This document shows positions 1,069 to 4,917 of a stretch of 5,171 nt of DNA, piece by piece. The notes under the pieces were generated by a model that was given only the letters and a program-made list of their open reading frames with translations, was not told where the DNA came from and searched no databases. Each line of letters opens with the position of its first letter. The stretch's first letter is position 1. The DNA comes from a virus (taxonomy: Duplodnaviria; Heunggongvirae; Uroviricota; Caudoviricetes). The position numbers and the translations under genes were made by a program. The stretch is taken from IMG/VR virus record IMGVR_UViG_2602041644_000005; one strand, written 5' to 3'.

Positions 1069-1332
1069 TTACGCAGCTGAACCGCTAACTTTTGAATAGC
1101 ACTCAGGTAATCCATCATTTGGATTGGGGTAAATATCAGGACGCAGTTCATGAGGGGTCACGGACCAGTTTCCCAACTCACAAAGTTGTAAAACCCGTTC
1201 TGACGGGACTTGATTGTTAATTACCCAATTAGCGACGGATTGAGTGGACTTAAAACCAAAGTGACGGGCTACTTCAGATAAAGATTTTCCCGCAGCTTTT
1301 ACTGCTTTCTCTGTGTAGTTTTGAGATGACAT
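1069..1332 (-). CDS. Cro-like / YdaS-family HTH transcriptional regulator (87 aa)
   Basis: ATG at 1332-1330 with AGGAG 6 nt upstream on the minus strand (plus 1333-1345 reverse complement is agaggagaaaggt). It is divergent from the CI-like gene across an operator-bearing intergenic region. The protein carries an HTH-like segment (LSEVARHFGFKSTQSVANWV) and an ELRPD motif typical of prophage Cro/YdaS-type regulators. Confidence 0.8.
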   Translation of the reverse strand: MSSQNYTEKAVKAAGKSLSEVARHFGFKSTQSVANWVINNQVPSERVLQLCELGNWSVTPHELRPDIYPNPNDGLPECYSKVSGSAA

Positions 1333-1341
1333 ACCTTTCTC

Positions 1342-1356
1342 CTCTGAAATTCAGAG
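1342..1356. promoter_or_regulatory. 15-bp dyad CTCTGAA-A-TTCAGAG overlapping the cro-like RBS
   Basis: Two perfect 7-bp inverted arms around one central base, read directly. It sits 10-24 nt upstream of the cro-like ATG on the minus strand and overlaps its SD. Its sequence is unrelated to the CTACTT operator repeats. Confidence 0.45.
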
Positions 1357-1364
1357 GGATGATG

Positions 1365-1400
1365 CTACTTAAAATAGCAGAATGCAACTACTTAAAATAG
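1365..1400. promoter_or_regulatory. Two copies of a 13-bp operator-like repeat CTACTTAAAATAG (1365-1377 and 1388-1400), candidate OR sites with PRM/PR-like promoter hexamers
   Basis: Exact 13-bp direct repeat with a 23-bp period. Each copy is an imperfect dyad (CTA.TT.AA.TAG, one mismatch). Each contains TAAAAT (a -10-like hexamer) 5-7 nt upstream of an in-frame ATG of the CI ORF (1382 and 1403). On the minus strand TTGCAT (-35-like) faces the cro-like gene. Confidence 0.5.
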
Positions 1401-2143
1401 AAATGACTAGCGTATGTGATGCGAGTAACCTTCTACCTATGGTAGAAGAACAGAAGTATCCAGATTTCGCCAAGAGACTAAACGAGCTAATGACAAACAA
1501 GGGAATTTCTGTCACCCAACTCAAAAGTCTTGTGGGCGTTACATATGAAATGGCGCGGCGATACACAATCGGCGCTGCGAAGCCTCGTGCCTCTGTCATG
1601 AATAAACTTGCATTGGCTCTGGGGGTATCAGCTTCATATTTAGAATATGGTGTTGGCGAGAGAGAAGGATGTAAGGAAATGGCAAGCATCCCCAATCCAA
1701 CAAAACCCGATGTATACAGGATAGAAGTTTTGGATCTTAGCGTTAGCGCAGGACCTGGAACCTATATGCTTTCAGACTATGTTGATGTGCTCTACGCCAT
1801 TGAGTTCACAACAGAGCATGCCCGTTCTCTTTTCGGTAATCGTTCTCAAGATGATATTAAAGTTATGACTGTAAATGGCGACAGCATGTCCCCTACTCTA
1901 GTTTCCGGAGATCGACTGTTTGTCGACATTTCTGTTCGCAACTTCCAAACTGATGGTGTTTACTCTTTCGTTTATGGTAAGACGTTCCACGTTAAACGTC
2001 TACAAATGCAAGGCAACAAACTCGCCGTTCTTTCGGATAATCCAGCCTATGAGAAATGGTACATTGATGAGAAGTCCCAAGATCAACTTTATGTTATGGG
2101 CAAAGCATTGATACACGAATCAATTAAATACAACCGGCTTTAG
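1382..2143 (+). CDS. cI: CI-like phage repressor: N-terminal XRE-type HTH plus C-terminal S24 (LexA-like) self-cleaving peptidase domain
   Basis: HTH segment FAKRLNELMTNKGISVTQLKSLVGVTYEMARRY. The C-terminal domain carries the catalytic Ser motif VNGDSMSPTL and a downstream Lys (HVKRL), as in LexA/CI/UmuD. It is divergent from the cro-like gene. The start is uncertain among in-frame ATGs at 1382, 1403 and 1439; none has an SD, which fits a leaderless PRM-type transcript. The gene symbol is used functionally, not as an identity claim. Confidence 0.85.
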   Translation: MQLLKIEMTSVCDASNLLPMVEEQKYPDFAKRLNELMTNKGISVTQLKSLVGVTYEMARRYTIGAAKPRASVMNKLALALGVSASYLEYGVGEREGCKEMASIPNPTKPDVYRIEVLDLSVSAGPGTYMLSDYVDVLYAIEFTTEHARSLFGNRSQDDIKVMTVNGDSMSPTLVSGDRLFVDISVRNFQTDGVYSFVYGKTFHVKRLQMQGNKLAVLSDNPAYEKWYIDEKSQDQLYVMGKALIHESIKYNRL

Positions 2144-2170
2144 TTCTTCGTTTAGACTATAGAACTAAAG
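2138..2170 (+). other. 10-bp stem-loop (CTTTAGTTCT ... AGAACTAAAG) spanning the cI stop codon
   Basis: Perfect 10-bp inverted repeat with a 13-nt loop. It is followed by an A-run, not a T-run, so it is not a canonical intrinsic terminator. It could be an RNA-stability or processing hairpin, or mark the insertion boundary of the AT-rich segment. Confidence 0.3.
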
Positions 2171-2313
2171 GTGAAAAAATAATATTTATCAAGCAAGTGC
2201 TATTACTAATAGTTGTTTTACTCTCTTATTTTTATTAAACATTATCATTAACAATATAAAATAATCACCCAGCGTAAATTACAATATGCTGGGGGTCGAA
2301 AGGATAGAGAAAT

Positions 2314-3390
2314 ATGACAAAATCAATTTGTTTTTTTAATCATAAAGGTGGGGTAAGTAAAACCACAACAACCTTCAATCTTGGATGGGCACTTGCGGAT
2401 GAAGGCAAGAAAGTATTGATGGTTGACCTTGATTCGCAATGTAATCTAACAGGAATGGTTCTTGGCTATGAAAAGATTGATGAGGGTTTAGATTCTTTTT
2501 ATTCTAGCAGAGATAACTTAACTCTTGGACCTATTGTAGAATATTTGATTAATGGCGGACAACCTGAAGCATACCTTGAAAAAGAAACGGGAAAATTACA
2601 CCCTACACTGCATGAAAACCTTCTGCTTCTTCCCGGACATTTAGATGTTTCGGACTTAGATTCACAGATAAGTGTTTCTCTAAAAATTGCTGCTGGTATT
2701 CCTGCTACAAGAAATATACCAGGGAACCTGCCAAAAATATTACAGCTAATCGCCATGAAGAATAATATTGATTACATTCTTTATGATCTCAGCCCTAATG
2801 TTGGAGGTTTAAATGAAGTAGTTCTCATGTCAAGTGACTATTTTATCGTACCTGTAGCTCCAGACTTTTTTTGCTGGCAAGCAATTCGCTCTCTCTCAAA
2901 AAATATACCTCGCTGGCACAAAGAATTAGCATTATTTAAAGAAAATAATGATGGTAACTCTTCACAATCAATTAAAAATGCACCGCAGTTTCTAGGTATG
3001 ATTCAGCAGAGATACAGGCCGCGTAAAGGAGCACCTGTAAAATCTTTCGAAAAATGGATGGCAGCTATCCGTGATGCTGTTGATTCGATCTTAGTGCCAA
3101 ATCTAGAAAAAATTACCTGCATAATTCCACGAGATAAAGTGCAACATGCAATTAACAAAACAACAGTCAGTGGAGATTTATCAGCCTATGATCTTGCGCA
3201 TATTTCCGATTTCAACTCATTAATCGCAATAAGCCAACAACTAGCGACACCTGTTTTCTCCATCAGTGATCAGCAAATTCGCGATTCAGGGCAATTTGGG
3301 CATGCCTTAAATACAATGAAATCAAGCAGAGACGCCTTTAACGAACAATTTAAAGGGCTGGCTCAACGAGTTCTAGAACTTACAAAGTAA
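2314..3390 (+). CDS. ParA/MinD-family P-loop ATPase (deviant Walker A) with an uncharacterised C-terminal extension, 358 aa; orphan, no ParB partner
   Basis: N-terminus MTKSICFFNHKGGVSKTTTTFNLGWALADEGKKVLMVDLDSQCNLT matches the ParA/Soj/MinD deviant Walker A (KGGxxKT[TS]) and the following hhhhDxD motif. A mid-protein hydrophobic beta-strand plus Asp (YILYDLSPN) resembles ParA Walker B. AAGGA lies 9 nt upstream of the ATG. The gene is clearly more AT-rich than its neighbours (hand counts of 60-nt samples give roughly 28-45% GC against about 50% in the cro-side genes). The final about 150 aa are not recognisable. Confidence 0.85.
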   Translation: MTKSICFFNHKGGVSKTTTTFNLGWALADEGKKVLMVDLDSQCNLTGMVLGYEKIDEGLDSFYSSRDNLTLGPIVEYLINGGQPEAYLEKETGKLHPTLHENLLLLPGHLDVSDLDSQISVSLKIAAGIPATRNIPGNLPKILQLIAMKNNIDYILYDLSPNVGGLNEVVLMSSDYFIVPVAPDFFCWQAIRSLSKNIPRWHKELALFKENNDGNSSQSIKNAPQFLGMIQQRYRPRKGAPVKSFEKWMAAIRDAVDSILVPNLEKITCIIPRDKVQHAINKTTVSGDLSAYDLAHISDFNSLIAISQQLATPVFSISDQQIRDSGQFGHALNTMKSSRDAFNEQFKGLAQRVLELTK

Positions 3391-3397
3391 TGCATGT

Positions 3398-3420
3398 GCC
3401 CGGCCGCATAACCGGGCTTT
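3398..3420 (+). terminator. Intrinsic terminator after the ParA-like gene
   Basis: GC stem GCCCGG (3398-3403) pairs with CCGGGC (3412-3417) around an 8-nt loop, followed by TTTACTCTTCTTT. It lies 8 nt after the TAA stop at 3388-3390. Confidence 0.55.
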
Positions 3421-3575
3421 ACTCTTCTTTCTCCCTGATTAATCTCATAAAAAACTCCCTCCTCATAATTCACTATGCTCAATACCTACTCCAACTTCGT
3501 GCGATATTTTCAGTTTACAGCATAGTAAATCAGCAAAAACATTTAACTTTCAATTAATTATAGAAAAATCATAGA

Positions 3576-3633
3576 CAACAACAAATATCTACTTTTTGTT
3601 GTTGATTTTTGCTACTTTAAGTAGCAACATAAT
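3576..3633. promoter_or_regulatory. Candidate OL-type operator/promoter: perfect 19-bp dyad TTGCTACTT-T-AAGTAGCAA (3609-3627), an upstream CTACTT half-site (3589-3594), a flanking 10-bp inverted repeat (3576-3585 / 3595-3604) and CATAAT (3628-3633)
   Basis: The dyad core CTACTTTAAGTAG matches the cI-proximal repeats CTACTTAAAATAG at 11 of 13 positions. The two CTACTT half-sites here are 22 bp apart, against 23 bp at the cro/cI site. -35-like TTGCTA and -10-like CATAAT overlap the dyad. Everything is read directly from the sequence; function is inferred. Confidence 0.45.
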
Positions 3634-3736
3634 GTAAGCTATCACGGACAGGCAGGACGCCCACGAAGTAGCCGCCGGTGGCGTATGAATGACCGGATGA
3701 TTCGTTAGCAACAAAAAAGCGCCCTACCGGACGCTT

Positions 3737-3750
3737 CGCTCTTTAAAAAT
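3737..3750 (+). promoter_or_regulatory. boxA-like element CGCTCTTTAAAAAT (possible nut-site component)
   Basis: Near-identical to the boxA consensus (GCTCTTTAACAA in rrn; CGCTCTTAAAAATT in lambda nutL as I recall it). It sits about 110 nt downstream of the OL-like promoter on the plus strand. No convincing boxB hairpin follows, so this is tentative. Confidence 0.3.
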
Positions 3751-3902: not shown

Positions 3903-4397
3903 TTATGCTTGTTGGTCATCATTAATATCCGTTAGTTCATTCTCTAGAGGTAGATCTCCCGCACACCAAGCTATAAATTTTTCTTTGGTTGTTAAATCGT
4001 ACTTAGTTGGAACACCAGCAAAAATACAGGCCCGAATGAAAGCCGCTCGTTCAAGTGATTTCCATGGATTACTATCAGTATCTTGGATTTTTAAATACCT
4101 AGCTTGCAACTGATCTTCAGGAAGGGTATCAGACTCAATCAGCAGTCTTTTGTAATGCCTCGCTTGCTCTTTAGACATTCCAGCCTCTTGGCCAAACTGA
4201 TAGACCAACTGAAGAACCGAAAGTACGGCAACAAACAAACCGAAAATAAATAAATTACTGTACGGGGCGAAAACTGAAAAACCGAGAACGATTAACATCA
4301 ACGTTATTAATTTATCAATGCGAGTTAACAACGTGTAATTCATCTTCTCCAATACATAAGAGTAGTGAACATAAAATTTATAATCGTCTCTGGTCAT
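3903..4397 (-). CDS. Small inner-membrane protein (164 aa; two predicted N-terminal TM helices plus charged C-terminal domain); candidate SieB-like superinfection-exclusion or abortive-infection protein
   Basis: A 495-nt ORF in AT-rich DNA, where stop codons are frequent, so unlikely by chance. The hydrophobic hairpin LITLMLIVLGFSVFAPYSNLFIFGLFVAVLSVLQLVY is followed by a K/E/D-rich soluble region. It is oriented opposite to cI and convergent with the ParA-like gene. The start is ATG 4397, or ATG 4343 with GGAG 3 nt upstream. SieB-like is a guess from size, topology and genomic context only. Confidence 0.65.
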   Translation of the reverse strand: MTRDDYKFYVHYSYVLEKMNYTLLTRIDKLITLMLIVLGFSVFAPYSNLFIFGLFVAVLSVLQLVYQFGQEAGMSKEQARHYKRLLIESDTLPEDQLQARYLKIQDTDSNPWKSLERAAFIRACIFAGVPTKYDLTTKEKFIAWCAGDLPLENELTDINDDQQA

Positions 4398-4782: not shown

Positions 4783-4828
4783 GCGGTACCAGTTTGTACA
4801 CTTGCTTCCGGCTGGTACCGCTCTTTTT
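4783..4828 (+). terminator. Intrinsic terminator or attenuator (10-bp stem GCGGTACCAG / CTGGTACCGC, 19-nt loop, then TCTTTTT)
   Basis: Perfect 10-bp stem 4783-4792 pairs with 4812-4821, followed by a run of five T at 4824-4828. It is plus-oriented (the minus strand has no T-run after the stem). It lies about 140 nt upstream of the ATG at 4966. Confidence 0.55.
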
Positions 4829-4917
4829 ACAAAACAGAGAAGAGCATCACCGGACGACGGGCTCATAACCCAATCCATCCGGGCGGCTGCCACCGCAGGT
4901 GTTCTTCTCTGTTTTGT
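4829..4917 (+). other. Long-range inverted repeat forming a potential 20-bp RNA helix (4829-4848 with 4898-4917) that encloses about 49 nt, immediately upstream of the RBS of the 4966 gene
   Basis: ACAAAACAGAGAAGAGCATC pairs with GGTGTTCTTCTCTGTTTTGT; 17 of 17 core positions pair if one G-U is allowed, and the helix extends to 20 bp with a second wobble. A stem this long is unusual for a simple terminator and has the length RNase III recognises. Confidence 0.4.

What the first reader, a model, noticed from the sequence alone, without database searches (positions are those of the whole stretch)
1365..1400. Two CTACTTAAAATAG operator repeats between cro and cI that match a distant dyad at 3609-3627 (OR/OL pairing about 2.2 kb apart)
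The 13-bp repeat occurs twice at the divergent cro/cI promoter region. A perfect 19-bp dyad with the same CTACTT...AAGTAG core occurs once more, about 2.2 kb away, just beyond the cI-ParA transcription unit, with a second CTACTT half-site at similar spacing. This mirrors lambda, where CI bound at OR and OL loops the intervening DNA containing cI and rex. Here the loop would enclose cI and the ParA-like gene.
Basis: partly seen in the sequence, partly recalled or inferred. Interest (0 to 1): 0.6.

Follow-up and report, generated by a model that had tools for sequence, protein, structure and literature searches.

The report
Prophage repressor operators OR and OL
The repeated 13-bp motif is the binding site of this E. 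coli prophage's CI-type repressor, placed at both early lytic promoters as in lambda and HK022; this is an ordinary switch layout with a binding specificity not seen in any studied phage.

Summary
CTACTTAAAATAG lies at 1365-1377 and 1388-1400. The 19-bp dyad lies at 3609-3627, with a weaker site 23 bp upstream at 3589-3601.

All 55 related loci with enough downstream sequence carry the same five sites: three upstream of cI and a 23-bp pair beyond whatever genes follow cI. At least 12 different gene sets occupy that position. Loci with the same repressor C-terminal domain but another DNA-binding domain and another cro lack the motif. In 1.25 Mb of other lambdoid DNA only one site scores as high as the weakest window site.

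The sites fit promoter geometry. O1 fills the 17-bp spacer and O2 abuts the -35 of both PR (leftward) and PL (rightward). So these are OR1-3 and OL1-2 of an HK022-family switch: CI is 42% identical to HK022 CI overall and 55% in the C-terminal domain.

OL-OR looping is plausible, because HK022 CI loops in vivo, but I could not test it here. This is a new member of a known kind, of low to moderate interest.

Side lead: PL is followed at once by a strongly covarying structured RNA that is absent from Rfam.

The parts
1365..1377 (.). OR1, CTACTTAAAATAG (17-bp dyad TGCTACTTAAAATAGCA at 1363-1379). It fills the spacer of PR and abuts its -10.
   Evidence: score 18.6. Present at -74/-73 from the cI ATG in every locus with this cI N-terminal domain.
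1388..1400 (.). OR2, CTACTTAAAATAG. It abuts the PR -35 and lies 2 bp upstream of the inferred PRM -35.
   Evidence: score 18.6. Present at -51 in every related locus. Mean pairwise identity 0.94 across 23 distinct OR sequences.
1433..1445 (.). OR3 candidate, CTACCTATGGTAG (17-bp dyad TTCTACCTATGGTAGAA). It overlaps the inferred PRM start point and the cI ATG.
   Evidence: Scores 15.0 with a matrix built without it. Invariant in 23 distinct OR sequences although the neighbouring PRM spacer is only 52% conserved. HK022 likewise has a dyad, GAACTTATGGTTC, over its cI ATG.
3589..3601 (.). OL2, CTACTTTTTGTTG. A weaker site that abuts the PL -35, 23 bp from OL1.
   Evidence: (score 13.8). A partner site 23 bp upstream of OL1 is present in all 55 loci.
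3609..3627 (.). OL1, a 19-bp dyad with core CTACTTTAAGTAG at 3612-3624. It fills the PL spacer and abuts the -10.
   Evidence: (score 21.3, a perfect match to consensus). The OL block has 0.89 mean pairwise identity against 0.38 for its upstream flank.
1359..1387 (-). Inferred PR: -35 TTGCAT (1387-1382), 17-bp spacer, -10 CATCAT (1364-1359); it reads toward cro.
   Evidence: Read from the sequence. TTG of the -35 and A2/A5/T6 of the -10 are kept in diverged relatives (CATTAT, TATTAT). It is in the same register as PL (I1). Inferred, not mapped.
1403..1431 (+). Inferred PRM: -35 ATGACT (1403-1408), 17-bp spacer, -10 TAACCT (1426-1431; TAATCT in most relatives). The start point falls at or next to the cI ATG, giving a leaderless or near-leaderless mRNA.
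   Evidence: Both hexamers are conserved (0.94-0.98) while the spacer between them is 0.52. There is no Shine-Dalgarno sequence before ATG 1439. Inferred.
3602..3633 (+). Inferred PL: -35 TTGATT (3602-3607), 17-bp spacer holding OL1, -10 CAACAT (3625-3630) or the overlapping CATAAT (3628-3633).
   Evidence: TTGAT is invariant and the -10 keeps A2/A5/T6 in 27 distinct OL sequences. The early-left genes yfdP, yfdQ and yfdR lie downstream on the + strand. Inferred.
1439..2143 (+). cI: a 234-aa repressor with an HTH domain and an S24 autopeptidase domain.
   Evidence: Pfam HTH_3 and Peptidase_S24. PGAP start at 1439. 42% identical to HK022 CI: N-terminal domain 28%, C-terminal domain 55%.
1069..1332 (-). 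cro-like gene, 87 aa (YdaS-type HTH).
   Evidence: The same Cro family accompanies the motif in all relatives, and a different Cro is present where the motif is absent.
2314..3390 (+). ParA-superfamily ATPase, 358 aa. Exchangeable cargo between cI and OL; GC content 31-41%.
   Evidence: below the cut-off of every partition or MinD family. Composition. Replaced by at least 11 other gene sets in relatives.
3398..3417 (+). Intrinsic-terminator-like hairpin that ends the cI-side transcription before OL/PL.
   Evidence: 6 G-C pairs followed by a T run.
3636..3709 (+). Conserved structured leader RNA at the 5' end of the PL transcript.
   Evidence: 95.6% of cells paired and 9 of 15 pairs with compensatory changes. 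No Rfam match.

Best explanation
The five CTACTTnAAGTAG-type dyads are the operators of a lambdoid (HK022-type) immunity switch. CI dimers, and Cro during lytic growth, bind OR1 and OR2 at 1365-1377 and 1388-1400. OR1 occupies the spacer and abuts the -10 of the leftward promoter PR, and OR2 abuts its -35, so PR and the cro, cII-like and replication genes are shut off. An inverted copy of the same arrangement, OL2 at 3589-3601 and OL1 at 3612-3624, shuts off the rightward promoter PL, which drives the yfdP, yfdQ and yfdR early-left operon. The 23-bp centre-to-centre spacing within each pair is the spacing used for pairwise cooperative binding in lambda and HK022. A third, weaker dyad (OR3, 1433-1445) lies on the start point of the cI promoter and on the cI ATG, and would let excess CI or Cro turn cI transcription down. 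The genes between cI and OL, here a ParA-like ATPase, are interchangeable cargo at the position of lambda rexAB. What is shown: site positions, statistics, co-occurrence with the repressor's DNA-binding domain, and conservation. What is inferred: actual binding, promoter start points, cooperativity, activation of PRM by OR2-bound CI, and OL-OR looping. I put looping at roughly 0.55, by homology of the C-terminal domain to HK022 CI.
For: The OR and OL regions form a 46-nt inverted repeat. In all 55 loci with this cI N-terminal domain and enough downstream sequence (cI 71-100% identical), there are exactly five sites: at -74/-73, -51 and -6 from the cI ATG, plus a 23-bp pair 1.5-3.0 kb downstream. 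That pair always lies beyond the cargo, which differs among at least 12 types. Eight loci with a homologous C-terminal domain but another N-terminal domain and another Cro have no such sites. The predicted recognition region GVTYEM[A/V]RRY is nearly invariant while its surroundings diverge. There is a phylogenetic footprint: the OL block has 0.89 mean pairwise identity against 0.38 for its upstream flank, and OR2, the PRM hexamers and OR3 have 0.94-0.98 against 0.52 for the PRM spacer. Gene order and strands match a lambdoid prophage. HK022 CI is 42% identical overall, and its operators G[T/A]ACYTnAAGT[T/A]C are the same 13-bp dyad type at 24-25-bp spacing, one of them over the cI ATG.
Against: No binding, footprint or transcript-start data exist for this immunity type. 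No cultured phage in the collection carries this N-terminal domain at more than 55% identity, and the searchable literature does not mention the motif. The consensus scan did not call PR or PL, because their hexamers are weak (TTGCAT/CATCAT and TTGATT/CAACAT). OR3 partly lies in coding sequence, so some of its conservation could be due to the protein. OR2-OR3 spacing is 45 bp, unlike lambda. A perfect palindrome at 1341-1357 overlaps the inferred PR start and is unexplained.
Confidence: 0.87

Rival explanations
1. The sites are operators as above, and in addition CI tetramers on OR1-OR2 and OL1-OL2 join into an octamer. This would loop out the 2.2 kb that holds cI and the ParA-like gene, tightening PR/PL repression and modulating PRM.
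For: Each side has two paired sites at 23-bp spacing. The C-terminal domain, which carries oligomerisation in lambdoid repressors, is 55% identical to that of HK022 CI. HK022 CI, lambda CI and phiKO2 CB all looped OL-OR in the loopometer assay, and its authors suggest looping is widespread (PMC8053113). OR-OL distances of 1.5-3.0 kb in relatives lie in the range where lambda looping works.
Against: Nothing in the sequence requires a loop, since OL is needed anyway to repress PL. The OR-OL distance is free to vary with cargo. There is no OL3 to partner OR3. 933W shows that a lambdoid repressor can lack even adjacent-site cooperativity and an OL3 site (PMC5977221).
Confidence: 0.55
2. The repeats are centromere-like (parS/parC) sites for the adjacent ParA-like ATPase rather than repressor operators.
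For: They flank a ParA-superfamily gene, and partition sites are often short repeated dyads.
Against: The same five sites occur in loci whose cargo has no ParA at all (toxin-antitoxin-like pairs, kinase plus phosphatase, and others) and in loci with an unrelated ParA-like protein. There is no ParB-like ORF. The prophage is integrated and has an integrase. The protein is below the cut-off of every partition family.
Confidence: 0.02
3. The similarity is chance, or reflects AT-rich low-complexity intergenic DNA or a conserved recombination junction for cargo exchange, with no protein binding.
For: The regions are AT-rich, and the OL block does sit at a module boundary where cargo is swapped.
Against: 0 of 200 shuffles reach the observed count. 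0.03 sites are expected against 5 found. The background rate is 1 per 1.25 Mb. Dyad symmetry, identical 23-bp spacing and identical register with the -35/-10 hexamers on both sides are not expected of a junction. The other cargo boundary (cI stop) has no such block.
Confidence: 0.02
4. The sites are bound mainly by the Cro-like protein or another regulator, and CI recognises something else.
For: Cro co-occurs with the motif just as strictly as the CI N-terminal domain does, so co-occurrence alone cannot separate the two.
Against: In every studied lambdoid switch CI and Cro share the same operators (established knowledge). No other repeated dyad is present at the cI-cro intergenic region or at PL.
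Confidence: 0.05

Closest known systems
Coliphage HK022 immunity switch (CI, Cro, OR1-3, OL1-3, extra operator after cro)
   Same: The repressors are homologous: 42% identical overall and 55% in the C-terminal domain. The operator is the same type, a 13-bp dyad xxACYTnAAGTxx, with 23-25-bp spacing of adjacent sites. A dyad overlaps the cI ATG in both. Gene order is divergent cro/cI with PL beyond cI. HK022 CI binds adjacent sites cooperatively and loops OL-OR (PMC8053113, which cites Carlson and Little 1993).
   Different: The N-terminal DNA-binding domain is only 28% identical. The outer half-site is CTAC here against G[T/A]AC in HK022. There are two OL sites here and three in HK022, and no extra operator was found downstream of cro. 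OR-OL distance is 2.2 kb with cargo here and about 0.7 kb in HK022. HK022 has put RNAs after PL and PR, whereas this window has a different leader RNA after PL only.
Phage lambda OR/OL and the CI octamer loop
   Same: A LexA-like CI is divergent from cro. Adjacent operators are 23-24 bp apart (17-bp sites with 6-7-bp spacers, from my own knowledge). O1 and O2 overlap the lytic promoters. A weak third site lies on PRM. The cI mRNA is leaderless. Accessory genes (rexAB) lie between cI and OL, with OR-OL about 2.3 kb apart.
   Different: There is no significant sequence similarity between the repressors (E 0.027 over 76 residues). The operator sequence is unrelated. OR3 is 45 bp from OR2 rather than 23 bp. 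OL has two sites, not three.
Shiga-toxin phage 933W switch
   Same: Three OR sites and only two OL sites (no OL3) (PMC5977221).
   Different: The repressor and operators are different. 933W repressor does not bind OR1 and OR2 cooperatively, and whether this one does is unknown.
HK022/HK639 put antiterminator RNAs (for the PL leader RNA noticed in passing)
   Same: A structured RNA of about 70 nt begins within a few nucleotides of the PL start (PMC9378689). It shares short strings with the put RNAs: CGAAC..GG at the 5' end and GGAUGA near the 3' end.
   Different: There is no alignable similarity to HK022 putL or putR. The architecture differs, with a closing helix enclosing two hairpins. There is a single copy per phage and none after PR. 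In HK639 and L055 a diverged copy sits upstream of a true put-like RNA, so it is a separate element.

Membership tests
Lambdoid CI/Cro immunity switch with OR and OL | An HTH plus S24 autocleavable repressor gene divergent from a small cro-type gene, followed by a cII-like gene and replication genes | tested here: met
   Pfam HTH_3 + Peptidase_S24, YdaS-type HTH and Phage_CP76. PHROGs repressor and CII-like. Prophage context.
Lambdoid CI/Cro immunity switch with OR and OL | Several dyad-symmetric sites of one consensus in the cI-cro intergenic region, overlapping divergent promoters | tested here: met
   Three sites at 1365, 1388 and 1433. Register with the -35/-10 hexamers read from the sequence and conserved. 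Promoters are not mapped experimentally.
Lambdoid CI/Cro immunity switch with OR and OL | A second cluster of the same sites at the early-left promoter on the far side of cI | tested here: met
   Sites at 3589 and 3612, inverted relative to OR. They lie upstream of yfdP, yfdQ and yfdR on the + strand. Present in all 55 relatives beyond variable cargo.
Lambdoid CI/Cro immunity switch with OR and OL | Operator sequence goes with the repressor's DNA-binding domain (immunity specificity) | tested here: met
   The motif is present with the N-terminal domain MVEEQK..GVTYEM[AV]RRY and absent from 8 loci with the same C-terminal domain but another N-terminal domain and Cro.
Lambdoid CI/Cro immunity switch with OR and OL | Repressor and Cro physically bind the sites and repress PR and PL | not testable with these tools
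   Needs EMSA or footprinting and reporter fusions.
Lambdoid CI/Cro immunity switch with OR and OL | Long-range OL-OR looping by repressor oligomers | not testable with these tools
   Only indirect evidence: 55% C-terminal-domain identity to HK022 CI, which loops (PMC8053113).
HK022-type CI family | Sequence homology to HK022 CI over the whole length | tested here: met
   BLASTP E 6e-67, 42% identity over 239 columns.
HK022-type CI family | Same immunity (same operator sequence and DNA-binding domain) as HK022 | tested here: not met
   N-terminal domain 28% identical. Outer half-site CTAC against G[T/A]AC. It is therefore hetero-immune: a new specificity.
ParABS partition locus | Centromere repeats that go with a ParA/ParB pair | tested here: not met
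   No ParB ORF. The repeats go with cI, not with ParA. The ParA-like protein is below all partition-family cut-offs.
put-type antiterminator RNA (side lead) | Sequence or model similarity to HK022 putL/putR, and one copy after each of PL and PR | tested here: not met
   No similarity. A covariance model finds one copy per phage, on the PL side only.
put-type antiterminator RNA (side lead) | Promotes terminator read-through by binding RNA polymerase | not testable with these tools
   Needs terminator read-through reporters.

The most novel reading that the evidence does not exclude
The OL dyad marks a CI-controlled PL whose first 70 or so transcribed nucleotides (3636-3709) form a conserved, strongly covarying structured RNA. 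This RNA is absent from Rfam and from the searchable literature. It is shared by e14, SfV, SfIV, ST64B, ZF40, phiNP and Yersinia and Pantoea phages of many immunity types. The most novel reading still open is that it is an undescribed class of cis-acting leader RNA, for example a processive antiterminator or another RNA-polymerase-directed element distinct from put, that governs early-left transcription in this large group of N-less lambdoid phages. For the operators themselves, the most novel open reading is only that a two-plus-two operator loop encloses and co-regulates swappable cargo.
Probability: 0.3. Interest if true: 0.6.

Novelty: new member of a known kind. Interest (0 to 1): 0.27.

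Why it matters
The work defines, from sequence alone, the operator consensus (CTACTTnAAGTAG), the five-site layout and the likely PR, PRM and PL promoters of an immunity type. That type is present in 232 of 5426 complete E. coli genomes, yet no cultured phage in the collection carries it. This gives a ready set of fragments for binding and looping assays. It adds a hetero-immune relative for studying how HK022-type repressors change specificity with a small change in half-site. It also shows that the slot between cI and OL is a hot spot holding at least 12 alternative accessory gene sets under the lysogenic regime. It does not change the understanding of how lambdoid switches work.

Tried and rejected
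(1) Rfam scan of the window at E<=1 found nothing.

(2) blastn of the immunity region against 50,697 phage records matched only the C-terminal-domain part of cI, in HK639 and LMessi. tblastn of the N-terminal domain gave at most 54% identity.

(3) The genome-contig scan with cI returned only two loci, both with a different N-terminal domain. They served as negative controls.

(4) PDB sequence search with CI gave no hit at E<=0.01.

(5) PADLOC on the ParA-like protein, the 164-aa ORF and eight cargo proteins of relatives gave only weak partial hits, so no known defence system is assigned.

(6) I looked for homology of the PL leader RNA to HK022 putL/putR and rejected it. I also looked for a second copy downstream of PR and found none.

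(7) Full-text search for the operator strings and for the RNA core strings gave no relevant paper.

(8) King et al. 2011 (J Bacteriol 193:5784), which describes the HK639 put-like RNAs, is not held. I therefore could not check whether it mentions the leader element.

(9) A third OL site was sought with the weight matrix. The candidates at 3551 (6.3) and 3625 (5.9) are weak and lie in non-conserved sequence, so they were rejected.

(10) I considered that the ORF starts at 1382 or 1403. This was rejected because the upstream sequence is non-conserved, all relatives begin MVEEQK/MIEEQK, and PGAP starts the gene at 1439.

Full report
**What the window is.** The 5171 bases are 100% identical to a stretch of an integrated lambdoid prophage of E. 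coli, for example strain B20123 at 2,440,143-2,445,313.
- On the minus strand lie a DUF4222 gene, a cII-like ymfL gene (483-1040) and an 87-aa cro-like gene (1069-1332).
- On the plus strand lie a 234-aa repressor with HTH and S24 peptidase domains (cI, 1439-2143), a 358-aa ParA-superfamily ATPase (2314-3390) and a terminator-like hairpin (3398-3417).
- Further right are a 164-aa ORF on the minus strand (3903-4397) and the start of yfdP (4966 onward). yfdP opens the early-left operon yfdP, yfdQ, yfdR.

**Checking the observation.**
- CTACTTAAAATAG is at 1365-1377 and 1388-1400.
- TTGCTACTTTAAGTAGCAA at 3609-3627 is a 9+1+9 dyad.
- A CTACTT half-site at 3589 begins a weaker full site, CTACTTTTTGTTG.
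- The spacing within each pair is the same, 23 bp.
- The repeat finder independently reports 1359-1404 and 3585-3630 as a 46-nt inverted repeat, 78% complementary. The left cluster is therefore an inverted copy of the right one.

The consensus is the 13-bp dyad CTACTTnAAGTAG, and the two OR copies depart from it at one non-central position. No shuffle of the window reached the observed number of near-matches.

A symmetrised weight matrix built from related loci separates five sites from everything else in the window. They score 21.3, 18.6, 18.6, 15.0 and 13.8, and the next best site scores 8.3. Under a uniform base model 0.03 sites of this quality are expected in 5171 bp. In 1.25 Mb of lambdoid prophage DNA of other immunity types there is one site >=13.7 and none >=15. 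In the whole 29-kb prophage locus only these five sites reach 10.

**Comparative test.** This immunity region occurs in 232 of 5426 complete E. coli genomes, in two sequence variants: >=99% and 91-95% identity. Three diverged copies were fetched (L002-L004), and 59 IMG/VR loci were found with the cI protein as query.
- In all 55 loci that encode a CI with the same N-terminal domain (MVEEQK...GVTYEM[A/V]RRY; whole protein 71-100% identical) and that extend far enough, the matrix finds the same five sites. They lie at -74/-73, -51 and -6 from the cI ATG, plus a pair 23 bp apart 1.5-3.0 kb downstream. Almost nothing else in the roughly 12.7 kb of each locus scores as high.
- The downstream pair always lies just beyond whatever follows cI, and what follows differs. 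There are two unrelated ParA-like proteins, several two-gene sets of unknown function, HigB/HigA-like and HicA/HicB-like pairs, a kinase with a PP2C-like phosphatase, a lipoprotein and others, at least 12 sets in all.
- Eight loci whose CI has a homologous C-terminal domain but a different N-terminal domain and a different Cro carry no such sites.
- The motif therefore travels with the DNA-binding domain and cro, not with ParA or any other cargo.
- Conservation is a footprint. Among 27 distinct OL sequences the block from OL2 to OL1 has 0.89 mean pairwise identity, while the 34 bp upstream have 0.38. At OR, OR2, the flanking hexamers and OR3 have 0.94-0.98, while the 15 bp between the hexamers have 0.52.

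**Anatomy and likely mechanism.** This part is read from the sequence.
- *PR (minus strand):* TTGCAT (1387-1382), a 17-bp spacer, then CATCAT (1364-1359), followed by the cro Shine-Dalgarno sequence and ATG. OR1 fills the last 13 bp of the spacer, and OR2 directly abuts the -35.
- *PL (plus strand):* the same arrangement, with OL2, TTGATT (3602-3607), a 17-bp spacer holding OL1, then CAACAT (3625-3630), which overlaps CATAAT at 3628-3633.
- In diverged relatives the TTG of each -35 and A2/A5/T6 of each -10 are kept while other positions drift. The simple consensus scan did not call either promoter because the hexamers are weak. These promoters are inferences.
- *PRM:* to the right of OR2 a conserved ATGAC[T/G] (1403-1408), a non-conserved 17-bp spacer and a conserved TAA[C/T]CT (1426-1431) place a start point at or next to the cI ATG at 1439. 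That ATG has no Shine-Dalgarno sequence. This gives a leaderless or near-leaderless cI mRNA as in lambda, and OR3 sits on that start point.

The most likely mechanism is the classical one. CI dimers on O1 and O2 of both sides repress PR and PL. OR2-bound CI may help PRM. OR3 allows negative autoregulation and lets Cro shut off cI. Binding, cooperativity and activation are inferred, not shown.

**Closest relatives.** The repressor is 42% identical to HK022 CI (E 6e-67), with 28% in the N-terminal domain and 55% in the C-terminal domain. It has no significant similarity to lambda CI.
- HK022's own operators, read from its genome, are of the same 13-bp dyad type: GTACTTAAAGTTC, GTACCAATAGTAC, GTACTTTTAGTAC and GAACCATAAGTTC. 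Adjacent sites are 24-25 bp apart, and one dyad lies over the HK022 cI ATG.
- The window therefore carries a hetero-immune member of the HK022-type family whose half-site is CTAC instead of G[T/A]AC.
- No cultured phage in the 50,697-record collection has this N-terminal domain above 55% identity. The operator strings do not occur in the searchable literature in any relevant paper.
- Two sites at OL with three at OR is the count also reported for 933W, which has no OL3 (PMC5977221).

**Looping.**
- *In favour:* two paired sites on each side; a C-terminal domain homologous to that of HK022 CI; and the finding that lambda CI, HK022 CI and phiKO2 CB all loop OL-OR in vivo, which led the loopometer authors to suggest that looping is widespread (PMC8053113).
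- *Neutral or against:* OL is fully explained by the need to repress PL. The OR-OL distance varies freely with cargo. There is no OL3 to partner OR3. 933W shows that cooperativity is not universal.

I put looping at about 0.55.

The 'cI-ParA transcription unit' is also unproven. No terminator was detected between the two genes. However, they are separated by 170 bp of AT-rich DNA with promoter-like matches, and the ParA-like gene has 31-41% GC, against 42-47% across most of cI.

**Rivals rejected.**
- *Partition (parS) sites for the ParA-like protein:* excluded because the sites go with cI in loci without any ParA, there is no ParB, and the prophage is integrated.
- *Chance or low complexity:* excluded by the statistics above.
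- *A pure recombination junction:* does not explain the dyad symmetry, the identical spacing and the promoter register on both sides.

**Noticed beyond the finding.** Immediately after PL, at 3636-3709, lies a sequence conserved at 85-97% in phages of quite different immunity: e14 in E. coli K-12, SfV, SfIV, SfII, ST64B, ZF40, phiNP, Yersinia YeP1-3 and Pantoea AH07. In the annotated records checked it always lies about 90-125 nt after the cI stop, directly downstream of their PL.
- It folds into a closing helix that encloses a short hairpin and a 5-bp stem-loop.
- In 78 distinct sequences, 95.6% of pair cells are standard pairs and 9 of 15 pairs show compensatory changes. The closing helix occurs as CGAAC/GUUCG-, GUCAUC/GAUGAC- and CCACC/GGUGG-type variants. 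The covariation score is 0.49, against 0.01-0.11 for slid controls.
- It matches no Rfam family and no searchable paper.
- It is not alignable to HK022 putL or putR, and occurs once per phage, on the PL side only.
- In HK639 and in locus L055 a diverged copy sits between PL and a genuine put-like RNA.

Its function is unknown. A role in early-left transcription elongation or leader processing is a guess. I could not read King et al. 2011 to see whether it is described there.

**Verdict.** The OR/OL operator reading is strongly supported and extended to five sites and three promoters, with HK022 as the closest relative. Looping is plausible but untested. This is a new immunity specificity within a textbook architecture: a new member of a known kind, of low to moderate interest.

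Noticed in passing
window 3636-3709 (+); also L066 2489-2563 (e14), L067 2492-2565 (ST64B), L068 3147-3220 (SfV), L071-L074 1992-2065: A conserved structured RNA lies at the very start of the PL transcript and is shared by many lambdoid phages of different immunity. It has a closing helix plus two hairpins; 95.6% of cells are paired and 9 of 15 pairs show compensatory changes. The invariant core AGGACGCCCACGAAGUAGC occurs in at least 120 viral contigs. It has no Rfam match, is not alignable to HK022 put, and occurs once per phage.
   Followed up: partly
window 2144-3588; L002-L065 between the cI stop and OL: The slot between cI and OL/PL (the position of lambda rexAB) holds at least 12 different gene sets among phages with the same immunity. 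These include two unrelated ParA-like ATPases, HigBA-like and HicAB-like pairs, a kinase with a PP2C-like phosphatase, and a lipoprotein. PADLOC recognises none of them as a known defence system. The window's ParA-like protein is below the cut-off of every partition or MinD family and has no ParB partner.
   Followed up: partly
window 1341-1357: A perfect 17-bp palindrome, CCTCTGAAATTCAGAGG, lies between the inferred PR -10 and the cro Shine-Dalgarno sequence. Its arms are conserved in all relatives while the centre varies. It overlaps the inferred PR start, so it is either a site for another regulator or a 5' hairpin that touches the cro ribosome-binding site.
   Followed up: no
window 3716-3749 and 4819-4917: There are two boxA-like sequences on the PL strand. 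CGCTCTTTAAAAA (3737-3749) directly follows a hairpin that also reads as a minus-strand terminator. CGCTCTTTTTACAA (4819-4832) is followed by a long imperfect hairpin (arms 4829-4853 and 4893-4917, 84% complementary) just upstream of yfdP. Relatives carry GCTCTTTAACAA, the rrn-type boxA. These look like nut sites, but no N-like gene was identified.
   Followed up: no
window 3903-4397 (-): A 164-aa ORF with predicted hydrophobic stretches lies antisense to the PL transcript, between PL and yfdP, and a terminator-like hairpin (3737-3716, minus strand) lies about 165 bp downstream of its stop codon. It matches PHROG families of unknown function only and is replaced by other genes in relatives. It is probably a second lysogen-expressed accessory gene.
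   Followed up: no
L039 8326-8523 (-), L046 8146-8352 (-), L195 (HK639) 4989-5225 (-): In non-E. coli relatives and in HK639 a small conserved ORF of 65-79 aa lies on the opposite strand directly upstream of OL, facing cI. It is absent from the window. It might be driven by a promoter divergent from PL.
   Followed up: no
L064 8344-8847: One otherwise identical prophage has an IS1-like transposase insertion between the ParA-like gene and OL. This stretches the OR-OL distance to about 3.0 kb without loss of the operators.
   Followed up: no
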